This document shows, piece after piece, positions 950 through 11,256 of a stretch of DNA of 19,882 nt. The stretch lies in the UHGV virus genome UHGV-0342044, one strand, 5' to 3'. A program made the position numbers and the translations under genes. How positions within the stretch are numbered: the first letter of the stretch is position 1; each line of letters starts with the position of its first letter. Source of the stretch: a virus. The notes beneath the pieces are model-generated. The model was not told the origin of the DNA and searched no databases. It saw only the letters and a program-made list of their open reading frames with translations.

Positions 950-1396
950 TTAAGGTTTTAATTCATCAAGACGTTGTTGGATAGTGTTTTTGCTTGCGTT
1001 GTCTGTTATAGCCATTTGTTGTACTTGCCCCATTGCCATTTGAGTTTCCATCCACATATCGGCCCACACTTTTGTATCGTTATTAACTTGAGCGATAGTA
1101 AATCTGACTTTTGATACCGGGGTTGTTGAATAGGCATTGCCGATTAACATTTGTCCAAAAACAGCAGAGCCGCCTTCCAGTTCTTTACCACATATAACAC
1201 TGCTGTTATCCGCGTTGTAAATTATCAACCCTCTACTATTGCAGTAATTCACAAGGGCATCTTTGACTTTATCTTTTGTCATATTTTGATAAACCCCCTC
1301 AGGTTTTCCTGATTGAGTTTTCTTTATCAATGGTACGGAAGAAGTACAACCTGAAATGATAGTTGCGCTAAGTAATAGTACAGTCATTTTATTCAT
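950..1396 (-). CDS. putative lipoprotein (accessory moron, unknown function)
   Basis: 148-aa ORF on the minus strand with an N-terminal signal peptide and lipobox (MNKMTVLLLSATIISGC). Strongly AT-rich relative to the flanking phage genes. It is the only convincing minus-strand gene in the window. Confidence 0.7.
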   Translation of the reverse strand: MNKMTVLLLSATIISGCTSSVPLIKKTQSGKPEGVYQNMTKDKVKDALVNYCNSRGLIIYNADNSSVICGKELEGGSAVFGQMLIGNAYSTTPVSKVRFTIAQVNNDTKVWADMWMETQMAMGQVQQMAITDNASKNTIQQRLDELKP

Positions 1397-1526
1397 GTTT
1401 CTTATCCATTGTTAAGGGCATACCCACACAATTATTTTTATTGGAGATGAATAATCAACCGTTTACAATCGTAAAAAATCAAATATGCTGTTAAGAGTGG
1501 TTACTTCGCCACACAACTTAAACCCG

Positions 1527-1544
1527 CCGCTGAGCGGTTTTTTT
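1527..1544 (+). terminator. putative rho-independent terminator
   Basis: Short GC stem CCGC (1527-1530) / GCGG (1534-1537) with loop TGA, followed by a run of seven T (1538-1544) on the + strand. Confidence 0.4.
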
Positions 1545-1666
1545 GTACCTGTAAACTTGGTGCAGTACAGTAAACACGCTGGTGGTCGTGAATACTGACT
1601 TTTTATCTTGCTGGCTTTTTAGACAAGAGTTATTGGTATGTCATGTTAACCAGAAGGGGAAAAGAC

Positions 1667-1870
1667 ATGCTAAAACAGCAAGATATGACAGAAACCGCCG
1701 CCGCAGTCCTTCATTTCTTACCTGCTGACAAGTGGGTAACGCCACGCATGATGACGAGAACTGCCGGAGTAAGCGAAGCCCGGTGCCAGTTAATACTGAC
1801 CCAGTTAGTTCTGGCGGGTCTGGCGAAGGATAACGGCGGGTACGGGAATAAATTCAGACGCTGCCAGTAA
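1667..1870 (+). CDS. small hypothetical protein, possible winged-helix DNA-binding protein
   Basis: ATG at 1667 preceded by AAGGGGA (1654-1660). 67-aa product MLKQQDMTETAAAVLHFLPADKWVTPRMMTRTAGVSEARCQLILTQLVLAGLAKDNGGYGNKFRRCQ has a helix-turn-wing-like pattern. The ORF track gives a longer version from 1643. Function is inferred only. Confidence 0.5.
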   Translation: MLKQQDMTETAAAVLHFLPADKWVTPRMMTRTAGVSEARCQLILTQLVLAGLAKDNGGYGNKFRRCQ

Positions 1871-1897
1871 TGGCGGTTTCCTGCTGTGAAAATGGGC

Positions 1898-2020
1898 GGC
1901 TGGTGGGTGTTGGTAGCACCTACCAGCCATTCGCTCATGCTTACTGGTCACAAGCGAACCACGGCCCACTGCTTTAGCGCAAAAGCAGAGTGAGCCTACC
2001 AGAGTTACGCTTACTGATCC
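1898..2020 (+). promoter_or_regulatory. repeat- and hairpin-rich leader upstream of the methyltransferase gene
   Basis: Direct repeats CCTACCAG at 1919-1926 and 1995-2002; GCTTACTG(G/A)TC at 1939-1949 and 2009-2019. Hairpin TGGTAG-CAC-CTACCA at 1911-1925 and hairpin CTGCTTT-AGCGCA-AAAGCAG at 1969-1988. No Shine-Dalgarno sequence before the ATG at 2021. Confidence 0.3.
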
Positions 2021-3073
2021 ATGAAAAATACTGTAAAAATAAACAGTGTTGATTTAATCAACGCTGATTGCCTGCATTTTATTCAGTCCCTGCCTGATGA
2101 TTCCATTGACCTGATTGTTACCGATCCGCCGTACTTCAAGGTGAAACCCAACGGCTGGGACAATCAGTGGAAAGGGGACGAAGATTACCTTAAGTGGCTG
2201 GACCACTGTCTGGCCCAGTTCTGGCGGGTGTTAAAACCTGCCGGAAGCCTTTACCTGTTCTGTGGGCATCGCCTGGCATCTGATATTGAGATCATGATGC
2301 GTGAACGTTTCAACGTGCTTAACCATATCATCTGGGCGAAGCCGTCCGGACGTTGGAATGGGTGTAATAAAGAAAGTCTGCGCGCATATTTTCCTGCCAC
2401 AGAGCGCGTTCTGTTTGCTGAACATTACCAGGGGCCATATCGTGGCAAAAGTGATGGCTATGCGGCAAAAGAAAGGGAACTCAAACAGCACATAATGGCA
2501 CCGCTGATATCGTATTTCAGGGATGCTCGTGCCGAACTGGGTATAACGGCAAAACAAATTGCCGAAGCCACAGGTAAGAAAAATATGGTTTCCCACTGGT
2601 TTGGTGCCAGTCAGTGGCAGTTGCCGAATGAGGCTGACTATCGGAAGTTACAGGCACTGTTTTCCCGTATAGCGGCAGAGAAGTTTCAGGAACAACAACT
2701 GGAACAACCACACCACCAGCTGGTGGCATCTTATGATTCACTGAATCGCAAATATTCTGAATTGCTGGATGAGTTTAAATCTCTCCGGCGCTATTTCTCC
2801 GTATCAGTCTCCGTGCCTTATACCGATGTCTGGACGCATAAGCCCGTTCAGTTCTACCCGGGTAAACATCCGTGCGAGAAACCGGCGGATATGCTCCGGC
2901 AAATAATCAATGCCAGTAGTCGCCCTGGTGATCTGGTTGCTGATTTCTTTATGGGATCCGGTTCCACAATAAAAGCAGCAATGGCGCTGGGGCGTCGGGC
3001 GTTAGGTGTTGAACTTGAGTCAGAGCGGTTTAATCAGACGGTGAAAGAGGTAAGTGAACTGGTGGGGAAATAA
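2021..3073 (+). CDS. DNA methyltransferase, beta-class (N6-adenine or N4-cytosine)
   Basis: 350-aa ORF with catalytic DPPY motif near the N-terminus (IVTDPPYF) and the AdoMet-binding FxGxG motif near the C-terminus (DFFMGSGST). This circularly permuted order is typical of beta-class amino-methyltransferases. A central insertion carries an HTH-like segment (ITAKQIAEATGKKNMVSHWF). Confidence 0.85.
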   Translation: MKNTVKINSVDLINADCLHFIQSLPDDSIDLIVTDPPYFKVKPNGWDNQWKGDEDYLKWLDHCLAQFWRVLKPAGSLYLFCGHRLASDIEIMMRERFNVLNHIIWAKPSGRWNGCNKESLRAYFPATERVLFAEHYQGPYRGKSDGYAAKERELKQHIMAPLISYFRDARAELGITAKQIAEATGKKNMVSHWFGASQWQLPNEADYRKLQALFSRIAAEKFQEQQLEQPHHQLVASYDSLNRKYSELLDEFKSLRRYFSVSVSVPYTDVWTHKPVQFYPGKHPCEKPADMLRQIINASSRPGDLVADFFMGSGSTIKAAMALGRRALGVELESERFNQTVKEVSELVGK

Positions 3074-3149
3074 TTCTGGTGGCCACGTTGCGTGGCCTTT
3101 TTATTTCCAACACAGCACCCGCAAATATCGCGAGGTGAGAGATGACGAA

Positions 3150-3485
3150 ATGCCTCATAACCCAAATACCTGGCCGGACTGGCTGGAGTTGTTTCAGAGC
3201 TGGTGGCGTGGAGACACGCCGCTGGGTGCAGTGATTATGTCGATCGTTATGGCTGGTTTGCGCATCGCCTATTTTGGCGGTGGTGGTGGCTGGAAGCGAA
3301 AAACGCTCGAGATTTTGCTCTGTGGCGCTCTGACGCTGACCTTTGCATCCGCTCTTGAGTATGTCGGATGGCCTAAATCACTTTCTGTTGCCATTGGTGG
3401 CGGCGTGGGGCTGATCGGTGTCGATGCTATTCGTGGGGCTGCAATGCGAGTAATCGGTAACAAGTTTGGTGGCTCTAAGGAGTAA
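3150..3485 (+). CDS. S: holin, class I (lambda S-like)
   Basis: ATG at 3150 preceded by GAGGTGAG (3132-3139). 111-aa product begins MPHN (lambda S105 begins MPEK) and has three predicted transmembrane segments and a charged C-terminus (IRGAAMRVIGNKFGGSKE). It lies immediately upstream of the endolysin. The ORF track's longer version from 3054 overlaps the methyltransferase and is probably artefactual. Confidence 0.75.
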   Translation: MPHNPNTWPDWLELFQSWWRGDTPLGAVIMSIVMAGLRIAYFGGGGGWKRKTLEILLCGALTLTFASALEYVGWPKSLSVAIGGGVGLIGVDAIRGAAMRVIGNKFGGSKE

Positions 3486-3488
3486 TTT

Positions 3489-3965
3489 ATGCAGGTACTA
3501 AATTCCCAGCGTAAAGCTTTCCTCGATATGTTGGCGTGGTCAGAAGGAACGGATAACGGGCGACAGCCAACCCGCAATCACGGCTACGACGTTATTGTAG
3601 GTGGTGAGTTATTCACGGATTACTCCGATCATCCTCGCAAACTTGTCACGCTAAACCCCAAACTCAAATCAACAGCCGCCGGACGTTACCAGCTTCTTTC
3701 ACGCTGGTGGGATGCTTACCGTAAACAGCTTGGCCTGAAAGATTTTTCTCCAGAAAGCCAGGACGCTGTAGCTCTGCAGCAGATTAAAGAGCGTGGCGCT
3801 TTACCGATGATTGATCGCGGTGATATTCGTCAGGCTATCGACCGTTGCAGCAATATCTGGGCTTCACTACCGGGCGCTGGTTATGGTCAGTTCGAGCATA
3901 AAGTTGACAGCCTGATTGCAAAATTCAAAGAAGCAGGCGGAACGGTCAGAGAGATTGAGGTATGA
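3489..3965 (+). CDS. R: endolysin, lambda R-type lytic transglycosylase
   Basis: 158-aa product is near-identical from memory to lambda R ([20 protein letters not shown]...[23 protein letters not shown]...) including the catalytic Glu in AWSEGTD. AAGGAG Shine-Dalgarno at 3476-3481. Confidence 0.95.
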
Positions 3966-4399
3966 GCAGAGTAACCGCGATTATCTCCGCTCTGGTTATT
4001 TGTATCATCGCCTGCCTGTCATGGGCTGTTAATCATTACCGTGATAACGCCATCGCCTACAAAGAACAGCGCGATAAGGCCGCATCCATTATCGCTGACA
4101 TGCAGAAACGTCAACGTAATGTAGCTGAACTCGATGCCAGATATACAAAGGAGCTTGCTGATGCTAACGCGACTATCGAAAGTCTCCGTGCTGATGTTTC
4201 TGCTGGGCGTAAGCGCCTGCAAGTCGCCGCCACCTGTGCAAAGTCAACGACCGGAGCCAGCGGCATGGGCGATGGAGAAAGCCCAAGACTTACAGCAGAT
4301 GCTGAACTCAATTATTACCGTCTCCGAAGTGGAATCGACAGGATAACCGCGCAGGTTAACTACCTGCAGGAGTACATCAGGACGCAATGTCTGAATTAA
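3962..4399 (+). CDS. Rz: i-spanin Rz
   Basis: Start overlaps the R stop (ATGA). N-terminal transmembrane segment [31 protein letters not shown] is near-identical to lambda Rz, followed by a coiled-coil periplasmic domain. Confidence 0.9.
4161..4346 (+). CDS. Rz1: o-spanin Rz1 (lipoprotein), embedded in the +1 frame of Rz
   Basis: ATG at 4161 preceded by AAGGAG (4148-4153). Product has a signal peptide with lipobox (LLGVSAC) followed by a Pro-rich segment ([13 protein letters not shown]), the hallmark of Rz1. It lies entirely within Rz in another frame, as in lambda. Confidence 0.8.
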
Positions 4400-4973: not shown

Positions 4974-5465
4974 ATGGATCATGAGTTGAAAAACCTGGTG
5001 CTGAATATTAATCAACTGGCGGCTTTATCTGGTCTGCACCGCCAGACTGTCGTGGCAAGACTGAAAAACATTCGTCCCGCTGGTGGACATGACAAACTCA
5101 AGCTATACCGGTTGACCGATATTCTGACTGAATTTATGGGGTTACCACCGCCGGTTGCTGAGGGCGAAATGGATCCACATGAACGCAAAGCCTGGTATCA
5201 GTCTGAACGTGAGCGTCTTAAGTTCGAACAGGAAACGGCACAACTCATTCCGGCCAGTGATGTCAGACGGGAGTTTGCCATCTGGGCAAAAGCGGTCGTG
5301 CAGGTGCTGGAGACATTACCGGATATTCTGGAACGTGACTGCGGCCTGCAGCCTGCCGCTGTGAGCCGTGTTCAGTCCATTATTGATGATCTGCGCGATC
5401 AGATAGCCCTGCGGGTGACCGAAGCAGGTGCGGATGATGAGGAGGAATTACAGCAGGAGGAGTAA
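4974..5465 (+). CDS. terminase small subunit (Nu1-like, N-terminal HTH)
   Basis: GGAGGA Shine-Dalgarno at 4965-4970. 163-aa product has an N-terminal HTH-like segment (LNINQLAALSGLHRQTVVARLKN) and an acidic C-terminus. Stop overlaps the large terminase start (TAATG), and it lies immediately downstream of cos. Confidence 0.75.
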   Translation: MDHELKNLVLNINQLAALSGLHRQTVVARLKNIRPAGGHDKLKLYRLTDILTEFMGLPPPVAEGEMDPHERKAWYQSERERLKFEQETAQLIPASDVRREFAIWAKAVVQVLETLPDILERDCGLQPAAVSRVQSIIDDLRDQIALRVTEAGADDEEELQQEE

Positions 5466-7567
5466 TGCTGAATCAGGAAACCGCAAAGGCAGCACGAACC
5501 GATTCAGGTTATATCCTTCGCGCACCGAGACGAATGCTGGTTGCTGATGCCGTTGCTCAGTATATGCGGGTGCCCATGGGGGCCGGGAACTCAGTCCCGT
5601 GGGATCCGCTGGTGGCACCGTATGTTATTGAGCCGATGAACTGCCTGGCCTCGCGTGAATACGACGCAGTGATATTTGTTGGCCCGGCACGAACTGGCAA
5701 GACTATCGGCCTGATTGACGGCTGGGTGATTTACAACGTGATTTGCGATCCTGCGGATATGTTGATCATTCAGATGACGGAGGAAAAAGCCCGCGAACAC
5801 TCCAAAAAACGACTTGCCAGAACGTTTCGCGTCAGCCCGGAAGTGGTCAGTCGCCTGAGTCCGAACAAAAATGACAACAACGTTTATGACAGAACATTCC
5901 TTGCTGGCAACTACCTGAAAATCGGCTGGCCGTCAGTCAATATCATGTCCTCATCAGATTATAAATGCGTGGCGCTGACGGATTATGACCGTTTTCCGGA
6001 AGATATTGATGGCGAGGGGGATGCCTTCTCTCTTGCCTCAAAACGTACCACCACATTTATGTCCAGTGGTATGACGCTGGTGGAGAGTTCCCCCGGCAGG
6101 GATGTGAAGGATGTGAAATGGCGACGGACTTCACCGCATGAGGCTCCACCAACCACGGGGATACTGTCGCTCTATAACCGTGGCGATCGCCGTCGCTGGT
6201 ACTGGCCCTGTCCACACTGTGGTGAGTATTTTCAGCCCTGCGGCGATGTGGTTGCTGGTTTCCGTGATATTGCCGATCCCGTGCTGGCAAGTGAGGCGGC
6301 TTATATTCAGTGTCCTTCCTGTTCAGGACGGATTATGCCTGAACAAAAACGTGAGCTGAACGGACGTGGGGTCTGGTTGCGGGATGGTGAATCCATCAAT
6401 GCGGATGGCAGTCGTTATGGTGATCCCCGACGCTCACGTATTGCGTCATTCTGGATGGAGGGTCCGGCAGCTGCTTACCAGACACTCTCGCAACTCGTTT
6501 ACAAACTGCTTACTGCAGAACAGGAATACGAGACAACCGGAAGTGAAGAAACACTCAAGACGGTTATCAATACCGACTGGGGATTACCTTATCTTCCCCG
6601 TGCCAGCATGGAGCAACGAAAAAGTGAACTGCTTGAACAGCGGGCAGAGCCAGTTCCTTCCCGCAGTGTGCCGGATGGCGTTAATTTCCTGGTGGCGACA
6701 GTTGATGTGCAGGCGGGACGTCATCGCCGTTTTGTGGTTCAGGTAACGGGCTATGGCAGCCGTGGCGAACGCTGGATTATTGATCGTTACAACATCACGC
6801 AGTCATTGCGCGGTGACAGCGACGGGGAGAGCCAGCGAATTGATCCGGCCAGCTATCCGGAAGACTGGGATGTCCTGCTGACGGATGTTTTTCATAAAAG
6901 CTGGCCGCTGGCCTCCGATCCTTCTCAACAAATGCGACTGATGGCAATGGCGGTGGACTCCGGCGGTGAAGACGGGGTCACTGATAATGCCTATAAATTC
7001 TGGCGTCGTTGCCGTCGTGATGGCCTTGGTAAACGTATTTACCTGTTTAAGGGCGACAGCATCCGGCGCGCAAAACTGATCACCCGTACATTCCCTGATA
7101 ACACCGGACGAACGGGCCGACGGGCGCAGGCCGCAGGTGATGTGCCGCTCTGGCTTCTTCAGACGGATGCCCTGAAAGACCGGGTGAATAACGCGTTATG
7201 GCGTGACTCTCCAGGTCCCGGCTATGTGCATTTCCCTGACTGGCTGGGGAGCTGGTTTTACGACGAACTGACGTATGAAGAGCGGAGTAGTGACGGGAAA
7301 TGGAGTAAGCCGGGTCGCGGTGCCAACGAAGCTTTTGACCTGATGGTGTATGCCGAGGCTCTGGTCATTCTGCATGGATACGAAAAGATCCGCTGGCCGG
7401 ATGCACCGGAGTGGGCGAGCCGGGAAACCTGGCTGGAGTGTGTCCCGGACAGTACCGAACCGTCACCCTCACCGGAACCGGTATCCACGCCTGTTAAAAA
7501 ACAAAAACGGAAGAAAACAGTAACTGACGATGTTAACCCCTGGCTGACTTCCGGAGGATGGTTATGA
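5465..7567 (+). CDS. terminase large subunit (GpA family)
   Basis: 700-aa product with Walker A motif (VGPARTGKT) and the CPHCGE zinc-ribbon-like motif (WYWPCPHCGEYF) also present in lambda gpA. Translationally coupled to the small subunit. Confidence 0.9.
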   Translation: MLNQETAKAARTDSGYILRAPRRMLVADAVAQYMRVPMGAGNSVPWDPLVAPYVIEPMNCLASREYDAVIFVGPARTGKTIGLIDGWVIYNVICDPADMLIIQMTEEKAREHSKKRLARTFRVSPEVVSRLSPNKNDNNVYDRTFLAGNYLKIGWPSVNIMSSSDYKCVALTDYDRFPEDIDGEGDAFSLASKRTTTFMSSGMTLVESSPGRDVKDVKWRRTSPHEAPPTTGILSLYNRGDRRRWYWPCPHCGEYFQPCGDVVAGFRDIADPVLASEAAYIQCPSCSGRIMPEQKRELNGRGVWLRDGESINADGSRYGDPRRSRIASFWMEGPAAAYQTLSQLVYKLLTAEQEYETTGSEETLKTVINTDWGLPYLPRASMEQRKSELLEQRAEPVPSRSVPDGVNFLVATVDVQAGRHRRFVVQVTGYGSRGERWIIDRYNITQSLRGDSDGESQRIDPASYPEDWDVLLTDVFHKSWPLASDPSQQMRLMAMAVDSGGEDGVTDNAYKFWRRCRRDGLGKRIYLFKGDSIRRAKLITRTFPDNTGRTGRRAQAAGDVPLWLLQTDALKDRVNNALWRDSPGPGYVHFPDWLGSWFYDELTYEERSSDGKWSKPGRGANEAFDLMVYAEALVILHGYEKIRWPDAPEWASRETWLECVPDSTEPSPSPEPVSTPVKKQKRKKTVTDDVNPWLTSGGWL

Positions 7568-7776: not shown

Positions 7777-9284
7777 TGGCAATTCTTGATGATGTGATTG
7801 GCGTTTTTTCACCAGGATGGAAAGCGGCAAGGCTGCGTTCCCGTGCGGTGATCCAGGCTTATGAGGCCGTAAAAACGACGCGGACACATAAAGCCCGGCG
7901 GGAAAACCGAACTGCCGACCAGTTAAGCCAGTACGGGGCCGTGTCGTTACGTGAGCAGGCCCGTTACCTTGATAACAACCACGATCTGGTCATTGGTGTA
8001 TTTGACAAGCTGGAAGAACGGGTGGTGGGGAAAAACGGGATTATTGTCGAGCCACATCCGGTATTACGCAATGGGGCCATTGCCCGTGATCTGGCAGCGG
8101 AGATACGCACCCGATGGAGTGAATGGTCTGTCAGTCCGGAAGTCACCGGGCAGTTTACCCGTCCGATGCTGGAACGTCTGATGCTGCGTACCTGGCTGCG
8201 CGATGGTGAGGTGTTTGCCCAGATGGTTTCCGGGCGCATAAACAGCCTGACGCCTTCTGCCGGTGTTCATTTCTGGCTGGAGGCGCTCGAGCCGGACTTT
8301 ATTCCCATGACCAGTGATGAGAGCAACAGGCTGAATCAGGGCGTGTTTGTTGATGACTGGGGGCGTCCCGAAAAATATCTGGTGTATAAAAGCCGTCCCG
8401 TATCCGGGCGGCAGATGGAAACCAAAGAAGTGGATGCAGAGCGAATGCTGCATCTTAAATTTGTTCGCCGTCTGCACCAGATGCGCGGGACGTCTTTGTT
8501 GTCCGGTGTGCTGATCCGCCTCAGTGCCCTGAAAGAGTATGAAGATTCTGAGCTGACTGCAGCAAGGATCGCCGCTGCTCTGGGGATGTACATCCGCAAA
8601 GGCGACGGACAGAGCTATGAAACGGATGGTAATGACAGCAAGGAGAATGAACGCGAGCTTACCATTCAGCCAGGCATTATTTACGACGATCTGAAACCCG
8701 GCGAAGAAATCGGAATGGTGAAGTCGGATCGCCCCAATCCTAATCTTGAAACTTTTCGTAATGGTCAGTTGCGTGCCGTGGCGGCGGGTAGTCGTCTGAG
8801 TTTTTCCAGTACAGCGCGCAACTATAACGGCACTTACAGCGCCCAGCGTCAGGAGCTGGTTGAATCCACTGATGGCTACCTGATCCTGCAGGACTGGTTT
8901 ATTGGTGCCGTCACCCGCCCGATGTATCGTGCCTGGCTGAAACAGGCTGTGGCATCCGGTGTTATCAGGCTACCCCGCGATCTTGATCGTTCTTCACTGT
9001 ATACCGCGGTGTATTCCGGACCGGTGATGCCGTGGATTGACCCTGTTAAGGAGGCTGAGGCCTGGAAAATTCAGATTCGTGGTGGAGCGGCGACAGAATC
9101 AGACTGGGTACGTGCAGGTGGTCGTAATCCGGATGATGTCAAACGTCGGCGCAAGGCAGAAATTGATGAAAACCGCAAGCTGGATCTGGTATTTGATACC
9201 GATCCTGCCAGTGATAAAGGAGGCAGCAGTGCCGCAACGAAACGACAGGAGCCGCAGCACACCGACGACCAGTCCGAAGAATAA
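7776..9284 (+). CDS. portal protein
   Basis: About 500-aa ORF immediately after the W-like gene. ATG at 7776 overlaps the W stop (TGATG). Position and size are typical of a portal; the ORF track's upstream extension from 7704 overlaps W. Confidence 0.85.
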   Translation: MAILDDVIGVFSPGWKAARLRSRAVIQAYEAVKTTRTHKARRENRTADQLSQYGAVSLREQARYLDNNHDLVIGVFDKLEERVVGKNGIIVEPHPVLRNGAIARDLAAEIRTRWSEWSVSPEVTGQFTRPMLERLMLRTWLRDGEVFAQMVSGRINSLTPSAGVHFWLEALEPDFIPMTSDESNRLNQGVFVDDWGRPEKYLVYKSRPVSGRQMETKEVDAERMLHLKFVRRLHQMRGTSLLSGVLIRLSALKEYEDSELTAARIAAALGMYIRKGDGQSYETDGNDSKENERELTIQPGIIYDDLKPGEEIGMVKSDRPNPNLETFRNGQLRAVAAGSRLSFSSTARNYNGTYSAQRQELVESTDGYLILQDWFIGAVTRPMYRAWLKQAVASGVIRLPRDLDRSSLYTAVYSGPVMPWIDPVKEAEAWKIQIRGGAATESDWVRAGGRNPDDVKRRRKAEIDENRKLDLVFDTDPASDKGGSSAATKRQEPQHTDDQSEE

Positions 9285-9297
9285 TTCCTGGTTCAGG

Positions 9298-11256
9298 ATG
9301 CAGGCTGGTCACCAGAGTGACGCGGATATTTATATTTATGACGAGATTGGTTTCTGGGGTGTTACAGCGAAGCAGTTTATCAGTGATCTGAATGCACTGG
9401 GCGATATCACCCACATTAATCTCCATATCAATTCACCGGGTGGCGATGTCTTTGAAGGCATCGCCATTTTTAATGCGCTGAAAACACATGGTGCGTCCAT
9501 TACCGTTTATGTCGACGGTGTGGCGGCGTCAATGGCGTCGGTCATTGCGATGGTGGGAAACCCGGTCATTATGCCGGAAAACACCTTCATGATGATTCAT
9601 AAACCATTTGGCTTTACGGGCGGTGATGCGGAGGACATGCGCACCTATGCTGACCTGCTCGATAAGGTTGAGGCGGTTCTGTTACCCGCTTATGCACAGA
9701 AAACCGGGAAAACCACCGATGAAATTGCTGCCATGCTGGCGGATGAGACCTGGATGTCTGGTGCCGAATGTCTGGCACATGGATTTGCTGATCAGGTGAC
9801 GCCAGCCGTTAAGGCAATGGCATGTATTCAGTCAAAACGTACAGAGGAATTTAAAAAGATGCCGGAATCCATTCGAAACATGATTACTCCGCCACGCAAC
9901 AGTGCTCCACGCGTACAGGATGATGAACCAGCAGCCTCCCGGACGCCAGTGCAGGCAGCAGCACCCGTGGTGGATGAAAACAGTATCCGTGCGCAGGTAC
10001 TGGCAGAGCAAAAAGCGCGTGTAAACGGTATTAATGATCTGTTTGCCATGTTTGGCGGGCGTTATCAGACGCTGCAGGCTCAGTGTCTTGCCGATCCTGA
10101 ATGTTCGCTGGAGCAGGCCCGCGAAAAGCTGTTGAACGAGATGGGGCGCGAGTCCACGCCATCCAATAAAAATACCCCGGCTCATATTTATGCCGGTAAC
10201 GGTAATTTTGTGGGGGACGGGATCCGCCAGGCGCTGATGGCGCGTGCCGGATTTGAAAAAACCGAACGTGATAATGTCTACAACGGGATGACCCTGCGTG
10301 AATATGCCCGTATGTCACTGACTGAACGGGGTATTGGGGTTTCCAGTTATAACCCGATGCAGATGGTCGGTGCGGTGTTCACACACAGTACGTCTGACTT
10401 CGGTAATATTCTGCTGGATGTTGCGAACAAAGCCATTCTGCAGGGCTGGGAAGATGCTCCTGAAACCTATGAACAGTGGACGCGGAAAGGTCAGTTGTCT
10501 GATTTTAAAATTGCCCATCGTGTGGGTATGGGGGGCTTCAGTGCTCTGCGTCAGGTGCGTGAAGGGGCGGAATATAAATACGTCACCACCGGAGATAAAC
10601 AGGCCACTATTGCACTGGCGACCTATGGCGAGCTGTTCAGTATCACCCGTCAGGCCATTATCAATGATGATCTGAATATGCTGACCGATGTCCCGATGAA
10701 ACTGGGCCGTGCGGCGAAATCCACTATTGCCGATCTGGTTTATGCCATTCTGACGTCTAACCCGAAAATCTCCACAGATAATGTAAGTCTGTTCGATAAA
10801 GCGAAACATGCAAACGTACTGGAGAGCGCTGCAATGGACGTGGCATCGCTGGATAAAGCCCGCCAGTTGATGCGCGTTCAGAAAGAGGGGGAGCGTCATC
10901 TGAATATTCGTCCTGCGTTCGTACTGGTACCGACGGCGATGGAGTCTGTTGCTAACCAGGTCATTCGCTCCTCAAGTGTCAAGGGGGCTGACATTAACGC
11001 CGGTATTATTAACCCGGTGAAAGATTTTGCGACCGTTATTGCAGAGCCTCGTCTTGATGATAACAGCCAGACCACCTTCTACCTGGCTGCGTCAAAAGGC
11101 TCCGATACAATTGAAGTGGCTTATCTCAACGGTGTGGATACGCCATATATTGATCAGATGGAGGGCTTCAGTGTGGATGGCGTGACAACGAAAGTGCGTA
11201 TTGACGCCGGTGTCGCGCCAGTTGATCACCGCGGTCTGGTGAAATGTACGGCGTAA
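9298..11256 (+). CDS. fused prohead protease (ClpP/S49-like) - scaffold - major capsid protein
   Basis: N-terminal ClpP-like protease domain (IYIYDEIGFWG...INSPGGDVFEGIAIFNAL...ASMASVIAMVG), a central Ala/Gln-rich scaffold-like linker, and a C-terminal capsid-like domain. Start placed at the first ATG after the portal stop. The open frame extends back to 9037 inside the portal gene, so the start is uncertain. Confidence 0.75.
   Translation: MQAGHQSDADIYIYDEIGFWGVTAKQFISDLNALGDITHINLHINSPGGDVFEGIAIFNALKTHGASITVYVDGVAASMASVIAMVGNPVIMPENTFMMIHKPFGFTGGDAEDMRTYADLLDKVEAVLLPAYAQKTGKTTDEIAAMLADETWMSGAECLAHGFADQVTPAVKAMACIQSKRTEEFKKMPESIRNMITPPRNSAPRVQDDEPAASRTPVQAAAPVVDENSIRAQVLAEQKARVNGINDLFAMFGGRYQTLQAQCLADPECSLEQAREKLLNEMGRESTPSNKNTPAHIYAGNGNFVGDGIRQALMARAGFEKTERDNVYNGMTLREYARMSLTERGIGVSSYNPMQMVGAVFTHSTSDFGNILLDVANKAILQGWEDAPETYEQWTRKGQLSDFKIAHRVGMGGFSALRQVREGAEYKYVTTGDKQATIALATYGELFSITRQAIINDDLNMLTDVPMKLGRAAKSTIADLVYAILTSNPKISTDNVSLFDKAKHANVLESAAMDVASLDKARQLMRVQKEGERHLNIRPAFVLVPTAMESVANQVIRSSSVKGADINAGIINPVKDFATVIAEPRLDDNSQTTFYLAASKGSDTIEVAYLNGVDTPYIDQMEGFSVDGVTTKVRIDAGVAPVDHRGLVKCTA

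What the first reader, a model, noticed from the sequence alone, without database searches (positions are those of the whole stretch)
1667..3073. Small DNA-binding-like protein followed by an orphan beta-class methyltransferase in the late operon
The methyltransferase has the DPPY motif before FxGxG (beta-class permutation) and a central HTH-like insertion, with no adjacent restriction endonuclease gene in the window. A late-expressed orphan methyltransferase would modify progeny DNA before packaging, a known anti-restriction strategy. The 67-aa upstream protein could be a controller or an unrelated small protein.
Basis: partly seen in the sequence, partly recalled or inferred. Interest (0 to 1): 0.5.

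Follow-up and report, generated by a model that had tools for sequence, protein, structure and literature searches.

The report
M.EcoGII-type phage adenine methyltransferase module
The gene is an intact copy of a well-known prophage enzyme family (M.EcoGII) that methylates adenines in DNA regardless of sequence. It is ordinary in itself, but a strongly conserved folded RNA leader, matching no family in Rfam release 15, sits in front of it and probably gates its translation.

Summary
ORF 2021-3073 is an intact 350-aa beta-class amino-methyltransferase, with DPPY at residues 35-38 before FxGxG at 310-314. ORF 1667-1870 encodes a 67-aa winged-helix protein. No restriction gene lies anywhere in the 19.9-kb window.

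The enzyme is not an unknown orphan. It is 81% identical over its full length to M.EcoGII, the characterised non-specific adenine methyltransferase. It is 89% identical to Anc291, a reconstructed ancestor that was tested and found non-site-specific. It is 100% identical to genes in sequenced coliphages, and 1849 of 5426 complete E. coli genomes match at least part of the 1.9-kb query around it (879 match 80% or more of it).

It sits between Q and the lysis cassette, bracketed by terminators. This fits the published view of an induced, lysogen-silent, broad anti-restriction function.

The small protein is linked to the gene in about 75% of diverse loci. Its role is unknown, and it is neither a C-protein nor a true Zalpha domain.

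The new part is the ~130-nt leader at 1892-2020. It is far more conserved than synonymous sites in the gene, shows compensatory base changes, and has no Rfam match. Its best-supported fold pairs the bases just before the AUG. A second, mutually exclusive fold has moderate support. This resembles the translation-inhibition structure of the phage Mu com-mom operon.

The parts
1462..1489 (+). Promoter-like site (TTTACA-16-TATGCT), candidate late promoter pR'
   Evidence: Consensus scan, 9 of 12 matches. The homology shared with phages carrying other Q types starts just downstream of it. Function is inferred.
1526..1545 (+). Intrinsic terminator (tR'-like) upstream of the small ORF
   Evidence: GCCGCTGAGCGGT followed by a T run. 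The homologous site is annotated as a terminator in SfV and Ayreon.
1667..1870 (+). 67-aa winged-helix protein (phrog_331, SfV orf47 family), function unknown
   Evidence: PHROG hit at E 2.4e-25. AlphaFold2 pLDDT 84.7 with H1-b-H2-H3-wing topology. Foldseek finds winged-helix matches. Present directly upstream of the methyltransferase in 62 of 84 diverse loci.
1860..1877 (+). Hairpin GCUGCCA-GUAA-UGGCGGU with the small ORF's stop codon in its loop, followed by UUUCC (weak terminator-like)
   Evidence: Read from the sequence. Homologous loci have covarying hairpins, often with long U runs, at the same place just 5' of the leader.
1892..2020 (+). Conserved structured 5' leader RNA of the methyltransferase mRNA. 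Its best-supported fold pairs 1946-1955 with 2009-2019, immediately 5' of the AUG.
   Evidence: Alignment of 46 distinct sequences. Pair counts with shuffle and slide controls. The covariance model finds one hit per locus, always abutting the ATG. Conservation exceeds that of synonymous sites. No Rfam match.
2021..3073 (+). M.EcoGII-family beta-class N6-adenine DNA methyltransferase, 350 aa
   Evidence: Pfam PF01555 at E 1.3e-42. 81% identical to M.EcoGII and 89% to Anc291. 100% identical in phage vB_EcoM-720R4 and many IMG/VR contigs.
2123..2134 (+). Catalytic motif IV, DPPY (residues 35-38)
   Evidence: Read from the sequence. Invariant in the homologue alignment.
2498..2731 (+). Central target-recognition region with helix-turn-helix (residues ~160-237)
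   Evidence: Gap-free alignment to M.EcoGII, whose residues 160-237 are modelled as a four-helix bundle with HTH (PMC11551740). Weak HTH_3 hit at E 0.01.
2948..2962 (+). AdoMet-binding motif I, FxGxG (F310-G314)
   Evidence: Read from the sequence. Invariant in the homologue alignment.
3081..3105 (+). Intrinsic terminator between the methyltransferase and the holin gene
   Evidence: GGCCACGTTGCGTGGCC followed by TTTTTATTT. Annotated as a terminator in SfV, Ayreon and N15.
3150..3485 (+). Lambda-family holin S, start of the lysis cassette (context)
   Evidence: Pfam PF05106 at E 5.9e-27. Same length as SfV S.

Best explanation
ORF 2021-3073 encodes an M.EcoGII-family beta-class N6-adenine methyltransferase carried by a lambdoid prophage. 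By close homology it should methylate adenines in DNA with little or no sequence specificity.

It lies in the Q-dependent late transcription unit, between the antiterminator Q and the holin, endolysin and Rz genes. Intrinsic terminators bracket it. It should therefore be silent in the lysogen and made only after induction, when it methylates replicating phage DNA before packaging. That would blunt many Type I-III restriction systems in the next host (inferred).

Because the enzyme is toxic, there is a second layer of control. The ~130-nt leader at 1892-2020 folds so that the bases just 5' of the Shine-Dalgarno-less AUG (2009-2019) pair with 1946-1955, which should hold translation down. A mutually exclusive fold that frees the start region is also conserved, though less strongly, so the leader may act as a switch. 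What triggers it is unknown.

The 67-aa winged-helix protein encoded just upstream is a frequent but dispensable companion of unknown role.
For: **Shown here**
- Pfam PF01555 at E 1.3e-42, with motif order DPPY then FxGxG.
- 81% full-length identity to M.EcoGII and 89% to the non-site-specific ancestor Anc291.
- A Stx2a-phage allele 94% identical to M.EcoGII has the same small ORF and leader, and sits between Q and stx2.
- Synteny Q, terminator, small ORF, leader, methyltransferase, terminator, holin in SfV, Ayreon, mEp460, phiNP, N15 and PY54.
- No endonuclease in the window.

**From the literature**
- M.EcoGII is non-specific, silent in the lysogen and toxic when expressed (PMC5778455; PMC12707154).
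- A transposon insertion in the adenine methylase of a PY54-like phage does not block lysis or lysogeny (PMC10612081). That the disrupted gene, ORF62 of phage P840, is the homologue of this methyltransferase was inferred from its genome position and was not checked.

**Leader**
- Its nucleotide identity to the window is 64-91%, against 29-54% at four-fold third positions and 58-77% overall in the adjacent coding sequence.
- Helices specific to the sequestering fold are 94.0% paired, with 8 of 20 pairs showing compensatory changes. No shuffle out of 500 reached this, and slid controls gave 25-40%.
- The whole sequestering fold is 84.8% paired, with 21 of 39 pairs compensatory.
- The covariance model finds exactly one hit per locus, always abutting the ATG.
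- No Shine-Dalgarno sequence lies within 15 nt of the AUG in any homologue.
- For the window's own sequence the two folds are nearly isoenergetic: -56.4 and -57.5 kcal/mol.
Against: - Nothing here measures activity, specificity, transcription or translation of this allele.
- 19% divergence from M.EcoGII could in principle change specificity. The nearest site-specific relative, M.PflMI, has a similar overall predicted fold.
- The open fold has only moderate support. Its specific helices are 84.1% paired, with 7 of 18 pairs compensatory. Two of 500 shuffles reached this, and one measure was not significant. The leader may therefore be a fixed inhibitory structure rather than a switch.
- About 20 of 84 loci lack the small ORF, so it cannot be required for methyltransferase expression.
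- Heavy m6A would expose virion DNA to m6A-dependent restriction enzymes, so the net benefit depends on the host.
- The pR' assignment is a consensus match only.
Confidence: 0.8

Rival explanations
1. The enzyme is a sequence-specific orphan methyltransferase (Dam-like or another defined motif). It would protect only against particular restriction systems, or serve phage DNA packaging or regulation.
For: The beta-class fold is shared with many site-specific enzymes such as M.RsrI, M.MboIIA and CcrM. The central domain has an HTH that could read sequence. The closest site-specific relative, M.PflMI, has a similar predicted architecture.
Against: It is 81% identical to M.EcoGII and 89% to Anc291 across the whole length, including the recognition domain and the charged linkers that M.PflMI lacks. 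M.EcoGII, Anc291 and deeper ancestors were all experimentally non-site-specific.
Confidence: 0.07
2. The conserved 1892-2020 segment is not a cis-acting translational gate. It could be a trans-acting small RNA gene, a DNA-level protein-binding site, or a small-molecule riboswitch aptamer.
For: The segment is highly conserved. It has a three-way-junction fold option (P1-P2-P3) as many aptamers do. Lambdoid late regions are known to encode small RNAs (PMC4104026 and the Pas sRNA preprint).
Against: - The segment always abuts the methyltransferase ATG and occurs once per phage.
- G-U pairs fit the + strand only.
- The best-supported helix covers the bases just before the AUG.
- No terminator separates the leader from the gene.
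- Few unpaired junction nucleotides are conserved, which is unlike a ligand pocket.
- Compensatory changes argue for RNA rather than DNA recognition.
- No known riboswitch or sRNA family matches.
Confidence: 0.12
3. The 67-aa winged-helix protein is the translational activator of the methyltransferase. It would be a non-homologous analogue of phage Mu Com, binding the leader RNA and shifting it from the sequestered fold to the open fold.
For: - Mu com-mom and the Mu-like com plus non-specific-methyltransferase operons have the same layout: a small gene, an inhibitory leader structure, then a toxic promiscuous DNA modifier (PMC6483171 and PMC3299994).
- The small ORF is adjacent in 62 of 84 loci.
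- Remote homologues sit upstream of the methyltransferase in N15 and PY54 (hhalign probability 92.6%).
- Structural neighbours include RNA-binding winged helices: SelB bound to SECIS RNA and eS25. Zalpha also appears, and its ability to bind Z-RNA is my own background knowledge, since the matched entries are Z-DNA complexes.
Against: - About 20 of 84 loci keep the leader and methyltransferase without the small ORF.
- In N15 and PY54 a promoter and a terminator separate the small ORF from the leader.
- There is no zinc finger and no sequence similarity to Com.
- Most structural neighbours are DNA-binding regulators, and NCBI names the family TrmB-like.
Confidence: 0.12
4. The main biological role of the methyltransferase is not anti-restriction. 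It could instead be host takeover or phage regulation through global DNA methylation or RNA methylation.
For: M.EcoGII methylates RNA, single-stranded DNA and DNA:RNA hybrids in vitro, and its expression slows host growth. Many orphan phage methyltransferases are proposed to regulate replication cycles.
Against: A position at the very end of the regulatory region, just before lysis and packaging genes, leaves little time for regulation. In vitro methylation by M.EcoGII blocks many restriction enzymes. Insertion in the methylase of a PY54-like phage had no effect on lysis or lysogeny in a permissive host.
Confidence: 0.1

Closest known systems
M.EcoGII / M.EcoGI (E. coli O104:H4 C227-11 prophages; GenBank EGT69837.1)
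   Same: Beta-class order DPPY, recognition domain, FxGxG. Nearly the same length (350 vs 349 aa). 81% identity over the full length with 2 gap positions. Prophage-borne. An allele 94% identical to M.EcoGII has the same small ORF, leader and late-region position.
   Different: 19% of residues differ. This allele (the SfV orf48, mEp460 and cdtI type) has not itself been assayed, as far as I could find.
Anc291, Anc289 and SUPREM (reconstructed M.EcoGII ancestors, PMC11551740)
   Same: 89% identity to Anc291. All tested ancestors kept non-site-specific activity, which brackets the window enzyme phylogenetically.
   Different: These are synthetic reconstructions, so they carry no genomic context.
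Phage Mu com-mom operon, and the com plus Hin1523 / Hia5 / Nma1821 operons of Mu-like prophages
   Same: A toxic, promiscuous adenine-modifying enzyme expressed late. It is preceded by a small ORF and by an mRNA structure that hides the translation start. It is silent in lysogens.
   Different: There is no homology. Com is a CCCC zinc finger, whereas the protein here is a winged helix. Mom is not a methyltransferase, and Hia5-type enzymes are alpha-class. Here the small ORF is dispensable in about a quarter of loci, and RNA binding is untested.
M.PflMI (CCANNNNNTGG), the nearest site-specific relative named in PMC11551740
   Same: The predicted overall fold is similar, including the helical recognition domain.
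   Different: It lacks the long charged interdomain linker, which the window protein retains. It is also site-specific.
Phage lambda cIII mRNA alternative structures (Rfam Lambda_thermo)
   Same: A lambdoid phage mRNA leader with two mutually exclusive folds, only one of which allows translation (my own knowledge of the literature).
   Different: The sequence and gene are unrelated, and there was no Rfam match here.
Zalpha domain (ADAR1, E3L, PKZ)
   Same: Best structural match of the small protein: TM 0.84 and rmsd 1.2 A over 64 columns. It has the same minimal winged-helix size.
   Different: Foldseek E is only 2.6e-3, with 16% identity. The Z-DNA contact residues N173, Y177, P192-P193 and W195 correspond to Q41, T45, G60-N61 and F63 here (manual alignment).

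Membership tests
Beta-class N6/N4 amino-methyltransferases (Pfam PF01555) | Profile match above the curated cut-off | tested here: met
   E 1.3e-42, 146.6 bits against a cut-off of 26.7, covering profile positions 1-220 of 221.
Beta-class N6/N4 amino-methyltransferases (Pfam PF01555) | Catalytic motif IV (DPPY) lies N-terminal to AdoMet motif I (FxGxG), with the recognition domain between them | tested here: met
   DPPY at residues 35-38 and F-M-G-S-G at 310-314. Both are invariant in homologues.
M.EcoGII family of non-specific adenine methyltransferases | Close full-length sequence similarity to M.EcoGII, including the recognition domain and charged linkers | tested here: met
   81% identity to M.EcoGII and 89% to Anc291, end to end. 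The reference sequences were machine-read from a supplement, so a few mismatches are reading errors.
M.EcoGII family of non-specific adenine methyltransferases | Methylates adenine in any sequence context | not testable with these tools
   Inferred from bracketing by assayed relatives. Needs a methylome or LC-MS assay of the cloned enzyme.
M.EcoGII family of non-specific adenine methyltransferases | Prophage-borne, not expressed in the lysogen, toxic when expressed | tested here: inconclusive
   The prophage late-region position is shown. Silence and toxicity are known only for M.EcoGII itself.
Orphan (solitary) methyltransferase | No cognate restriction endonuclease gene nearby | tested here: met
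   All ORFs of the 19.9-kb window were assigned to phage functions. PADLOC hits only the methyltransferase. The DUF968/HNH-like ORF at 72-482 lies upstream of Q, in the position it also occupies in SfV.
Restriction-modification controller (C) proteins | Xre-type helix-turn-helix protein of ~80 aa, placed upstream of and regulating an endonuclease gene | tested here: not met
   The small protein models as a winged helix. It has no HTH_3 or Xre hit, and no endonuclease is present.
Zalpha (Z-DNA/Z-RNA binding) domains | Winged-helix fold plus conserved Asn, Tyr, Pro-Pro and Trp contact residues | tested here: not met
   The fold is similar (TM 0.84), but the contact residues are replaced by Q41, T45, G60-N61 and F63.
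Mu Com-type translational activator with mom-type translation inhibition structure | The mRNA structure sequesters the translation start region of the modification gene | tested here: met
   Helix 1946-1955 with 2009-2019 ends 1 nt before the AUG. It is 91.8% paired and 7 of its 9 pairs show compensatory changes. This is a structural prediction, not a translation assay.
Mu Com-type translational activator with mom-type translation inhibition structure | The small upstream protein is a CCCC zinc finger homologous to Com and binds the leader | tested here: not met
   The protein has only two cysteines (C40, C66) and a winged-helix fold. RNA binding cannot be tested here. This is therefore an analogy, not membership.
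Known riboswitch, leader and sRNA families (Rfam 15) | Covariance-model match | tested here: not met
   No hit at gathering thresholds in the whole window. At E up to 10 in 1400-2100 there were only chance-level hits.

The most novel reading that the evidence does not exclude
The 1892-2020 leader is an undescribed cis-regulatory RNA that gates translation of M.EcoGII-family methyltransferases across temperate phages of Enterobacterales (lambdoid, Stx, N15 and PY54 types). It would work by switching between a fold that hides the Shine-Dalgarno-less start and a fold that frees it. The switch could be thrown by the adjacent winged-helix protein (a Com analogue), by the enzyme methylating or binding its own mRNA, or by the folding kinetics of Q-modified transcription.
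Probability: 0.5. Interest if true: 0.6.

Novelty: already known. Interest (0 to 1): 0.35.

Why it matters
The methyltransferase matters mainly as a correct annotation. It should be called an M.EcoGII-type non-specific adenine methyltransferase, not a generic orphan methylase, and methylome experiments should expect near-global m6A rather than a motif.

The useful lead is the leader. How phages keep this toxic enzyme silent until lysis has not been explained (Murray et al. only noted that it is not expressed in the lysogen). A conserved leader RNA that pairs the start region gives a directly testable mechanism. It would also be a second, independently evolved case of the control logic seen in phage Mu com-mom. 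It may be relevant to anyone expressing M.EcoGII-family enzymes from native DNA fragments.

Tried and rejected
- **Rfam.** Gathering thresholds on the whole window and E up to 10 on 1400-2100 gave nothing credible. AgvB, AsxR, Esr41 and STnc100, the known prophage sRNAs of this region, are Rfam families and did not hit.
- **Leader peptide.** The AUG inside the conserved AAAUGGGCG opens ORFs of 3 to more than 40 codons, with no conserved frame or stop, and N15 has GUG there. Rejected.
- **Small protein, sequence searches.** Pfam, NCBIfam and PADLOC gave no hit for the small protein. At E up to 10 there was only a 13-bit TrmB hit. A profile search of PDB sequences found nothing below E 0.18.
- **Zalpha reading of the small protein.** Rejected on contact residues.
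- **C-protein reading.** Rejected on fold and on the absence of an endonuclease.
- **First sequestering-fold test.** It was written with one bracket type and was mis-nested against P1, so one search is uninformative. It was redone correctly.
- **Terminator flagging.** My automated flagging upstream of the leader under-counted because RNAfold added long-range pairs. The hairpins are visible by eye, but I give no count.
- **Folding energies.** Alignment-derived constraints are unreliable for the most diverged sequences (Providencia, PY54, N15). Only the Enterobacteriaceae values are meaningful.
- **Literature.** Searches for a described RNA element upstream of these genes found none. The library is incomplete, so prior description cannot be excluded.
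Full report
**1. What is in the window**

The window is the late half of a lambdoid prophage. Reading left to right on the + strand:

| Coordinates | Feature |
|---|---|
| 72-482 | DUF968/HNH-like ORF |
| 485-865 | Antiterminator Q (PF06530) |
| 950-1396 (reverse strand) | Lipoprotein ORF |
| 1462-1489 | Promoter-like site |
| 1526-1545 | Intrinsic terminator |
| 1667-1870 | 67-aa ORF |
| 1871-2020 | 150-nt spacer |
| 2021-3073 | 350-aa methyltransferase ORF |
| 3081-3105 | Second terminator |
| 3150-3485 | Holin |
| 3489-3965 | Endolysin |
| 3962-4399 | Rz |
| 4974-7567 | Terminase |
| from 7704 | Lambda-type portal, protease-capsid, cement, Z, U, V, G, H, L and K genes |

Nothing in the 19.9 kb resembles a restriction endonuclease. 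PADLOC recognises only the methyltransferase.

**2. Check of the observation**

- The methyltransferase ORF matches Pfam PF01555 at E 1.3e-42.
- DPPY lies at residues 35-38 and FxGxG at 310-314, which is the beta-class order.
- The closest solved structures by sequence are beta-class enzymes: an unnamed methyltransferase (8urk/9c3u), M.RsrI, M.MboIIA, CcrM and DpnA. They align only over the two halves of the catalytic core, not the central region.
- The central region gives a weak Xre-type HTH hit (E 0.01).

**3. What the enzyme is**

The DNA of 1400-3300 is 97-98% identical to phages SfV (orf47/orf48), mEp460, cdtI and Ayreon. The protein is 100% identical in phage vB_EcoM-720R4 and in many IMG/VR contigs. 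Of 5426 complete E. coli genomes, 1849 have a match to the 1.9-kb query, and 879 cover at least 80% of it.

The family is characterised. M.EcoGII, from E. coli O104:H4 prophages, methylates adenine in any sequence context. It also acts on single-stranded DNA and RNA. It is not expressed in the lysogen and slows growth when expressed (PMC5778455).

I used the M.EcoGII sequence printed in the supplement of PMC11551740 (it was machine-read, so it contains a few errors).
- The window protein is 81% identical to M.EcoGII end to end.
- It is 89% identical to Anc291, a reconstructed ancestor shown to be non-site-specific.

That paper models residues 160-237 as a four-helix recognition domain with an HTH, joined to the Rossmann core by charged linkers that the site-specific relative M.PflMI lacks. 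The window protein aligns through all of this without gaps. It is therefore very probably a non-specific adenine methyltransferase, although this allele has not been assayed.

**4. Expression context**

In every relative examined the gene lies between Q and the lysis genes. This holds for SfV, Ayreon, mEp460_4F5, phiNP, N15, PY54 and a Stx2a phage in which it sits between Q and stx2.
- Terminators are annotated on both sides in SfV, Ayreon and N15.
- The Stx2a allele is 94% identical to M.EcoGII.
- In the window a further hairpin (1860-1877) carries the small ORF's stop codon in its loop. Homologous loci show covarying versions, often with long U runs. Loci without the small ORF have a plain terminator at the same spot.

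The gene is thus insulated by terminators that only antiterminated polymerase should pass. This fits silence in the lysogen and expression after induction. It is inference from position, since nothing here measures RNA.

A review groups M.EcoGII with Mu Mom as induced, lysogen-silent, toxic modifiers used against restriction (PMC12707154). In a PY54-like phage an insertion in the adenine methylase did not affect lysis or lysogeny (PMC10612081), as expected for an accessory function. That this methylase (ORF62 of phage P840) is the homologue of the window gene was inferred from its genome position and was not checked.

**5. The small protein**

The protein belongs to phrog_331, of unknown function. 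It has no Pfam, NCBIfam or PADLOC match.
- Homologues are confined to Enterobacterales prophages. Some are named 'TrmB family transcriptional regulator' by NCBI.
- The family is a mosaic of two allelic blocks around an invariant N-terminus (MLKQQDMTETA) and an invariant helix 3 (RCQLILTQL).
- AlphaFold2 gives a confident minimal winged helix (pLDDT 84.7).
- The best Foldseek match is Zalpha of ADAR1 (TM 0.84, E 2.6e-3). It is followed by IclR, MarR and TrmBL2 DNA-binding domains, SelB bound to SECIS RNA, ribosomal eS25 and PefI. The Zalpha contact residues are not conserved, so this is a shared fold only.

An HMM of the family finds the ORF directly upstream of the methyltransferase in 62 of 84 diverse loci. 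These include Providencia, Photorhabdus and Xenorhabdus. About 20 loci have unrelated genes or only a terminator there. N15 gp51 and PY54 ORF59 are remote homologues (hhalign probability 92.6%), but a promoter and a terminator separate them from the leader.

The protein is therefore a frequent, non-obligatory companion. It is not a C-protein: the fold is wrong and there is no endonuclease.

**6. The leader**

Aligning the spacer from six phages showed that the ~130 nt before the ATG are conserved even in N15 and PY54, where the enzyme is only 56-62% identical. The differences looked compensatory.

I collected 80 loci from one genome per species and aligned 46 distinct leaders with MAFFT, without using any structure.

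*Conservation.* Leader identity to the window is 64-91%. Four-fold third positions of the adjacent gene are 29-54% identical, and the coding sequence overall is 58-77% identical.

*Coding potential.* The segment is not coding. The ORF opened by its internal AUG has no conserved frame or length.

*Specificity of position.*
- A covariance model finds one hit per locus, always ending at the ATG, and none elsewhere in 507 kb.
- blastn finds one copy per phage in 59 phage records. The copy lies in unannotated spacer in most of them and under a 'hypothetical protein' call in four. One of the records is phage 1720a-02, which Murray et al. cite as M.EcoGII-like.

*Two mutually exclusive folds.* Positions below are window coordinates.

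| Fold | Helices |
|---|---|
| B (sequestering) | 1892-1897 with 1933-1938; hairpin 1898-1909 with 1917-1928; 1946-1950 and 1952-1955 with 2009-2012 and 2015-2019; 1963-1968 with 1991-1996; hairpin 1969-1975 with 1982-1988 |
| A (open) | 1893-1897 with 1964-1968; the same two hairpins; 1930-1938 with 1950-1958; 1992-1995 with 2009-2012 |

In fold B the long-range helix ends one base before the AUG. Fold A leaves 2013-2030 unpaired.

*Support on the MAFFT alignment.*

| Test | Paired | Pairs with compensatory change | Shuffles reaching it | Slid controls |
|---|---|---|---|---|
| Fold B, whole | 84.8% | 21 of 39 | 0 of 500 | 28-43% |
| Fold B, specific helices only | 94.0% | 8 of 20 | 0 of 500 | 25-40% |
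| Fold A, whole | 79.5% | 20 of 37 | 0 of 500 | 30-47% |
| Fold A, specific helices only | 84.1% | 7 of 18 | 2 of 500 | 28-41% |

For fold A's specific helices, one measure was not significant. The best evidence for fold A is the pair 1932/1956. It occurs as C-G, A-U, U-A and U-G, and both positions are unpaired in fold B.

*Strand and energies.*
- G-U pairs fit the + strand only.
- For the window's sequence the two folds are nearly isoenergetic, at -56.4 and -57.5 kcal/mol against a minimum free energy of -57.9.
- Unconstrained folding gives fold A for the window, a Yersinia sequence (L071), PY54 and N15. It gives fold B for the other seven sequences folded: the Stx2a phage, Lonsdalea, Ewingella, two Providencia, Kluyvera and Rosenbergiella.

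*Translation start.* No homologue has a Shine-Dalgarno sequence within 15 nt of the AUG.

I conclude with good confidence that the leader is a functional RNA that can hide the start region. I conclude with moderate confidence that it switches between two folds.

**7. Comparison with what is known**

The enzyme is a member of the M.EcoGII family. The sequence-level defining features were tested and met. Activity is untested.

The layout of small ORF, inhibitory leader and toxic promiscuous adenine modifier at the edge of the late operon works like Mu com-mom. It also works like the com plus Hin1523/Hia5/Nma1821 operons of Mu-like prophages. There the zinc-finger protein Com binds next to a translation-inhibition structure and opens it (PMC6483171, PMC3299994).

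The module is not a member of that system. There is no homology, no zinc finger, and the small ORF is dispensable in a quarter of loci. Lambda cIII mRNA is another lambdoid precedent for two alternative leader folds (my own knowledge). I found no description of this leader in Rfam 15 or in the searchable literature, but that library is incomplete.

**8. Verdict**

However, the object is an already known, very common and even commercially used enzyme family, so the finding itself rates low.

The added value is twofold. First, the precise identification: non-specific, so no motif should be expected. Second, the conserved leader RNA, which is the one element here that may be new and gives a testable mechanism for how the toxic enzyme is held in check.

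Noticed in passing
window 1892-2020 (+): The ~130-nt leader before the methyltransferase ATG is more conserved than the gene's synonymous sites. It shows compensatory base changes and has two mutually exclusive folds, one of which pairs the bases just 5' of a Shine-Dalgarno-less AUG. It has no Rfam match.
   Followed up: yes
window 1860-1877 (+): A hairpin holds the small ORF's stop codon (UAA) in its GUAA loop, followed by UUUCC. Homologous loci have covarying hairpins, often with long U runs. Loci lacking the small ORF have an ordinary terminator at the same position, immediately 5' of the leader.
   Followed up: partly
window 950-1396 (-): A 148-aa reverse-strand ORF with a signal peptide and lipobox (IISGC). 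It matches phrog_3152 (function unknown) and has no Pfam hit. It looks like a lipoprotein moron inserted between Q and the candidate late promoter, with promoter-like sites at 1415-1386 and 1458-1431 on the minus strand.
   Followed up: no
window 1512-1648 (-): Sub-threshold Rfam match to the enterobacterial sRNA STnc130 (26 bits against a gathering score of 55, E 0.13). It lies antisense to the region between the tR'-like terminator and the small ORF and uses the terminator hairpin in reverse. Probably chance, but not checked.
   Followed up: no
window 1546-1666 (+): The 120 nt between the first terminator and the small ORF are well conserved among the window, SfV and a Stx2a phage, even though the small proteins are only about 50% identical (alignment). 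No structure analysis was done.
   Followed up: no
window 1667-1870 (+) and homologues P0020-P0120: The small winged-helix protein is a mosaic. It has two allelic versions of the central block and two of the C-terminal wing, found in recombinant combinations. These surround an invariant N-terminus (MLKQQDMTETA) and an invariant helix 3 (RCQLILTQL).
   Followed up: partly
window 4134-4346 (+), inside Rz 3962-4399: An embedded +1-frame ORF with a lipobox (LLGVSAC) and a proline-rich tail, the expected Rz1 o-spanin.
   Followed up: no
window 9037-11256 (+): A single 739-aa ORF carries both a ClpP-type protease domain and a major capsid domain (Pfam PF00574 and PF25209). The listed start is a TTG and the true start was not examined.
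   Followed up: no
loci L059-L087 (Photorhabdus, Xenorhabdus): These relatives keep the small ORF but have a shortened leader of 77-102 nt. It retains only the first hairpin and its flanks, and the covariance model scores it 15-20 bits.
   Followed up: partly
phage records H96-H103 and H164 (Stx2a phages, phiSTEC1575-Stx2k): Some Stx2 phages retain only the last ~35 codons of the methyltransferase, or only the first ~50 nt of the leader. This suggests recurrent deletion of the module.
   Followed up: no
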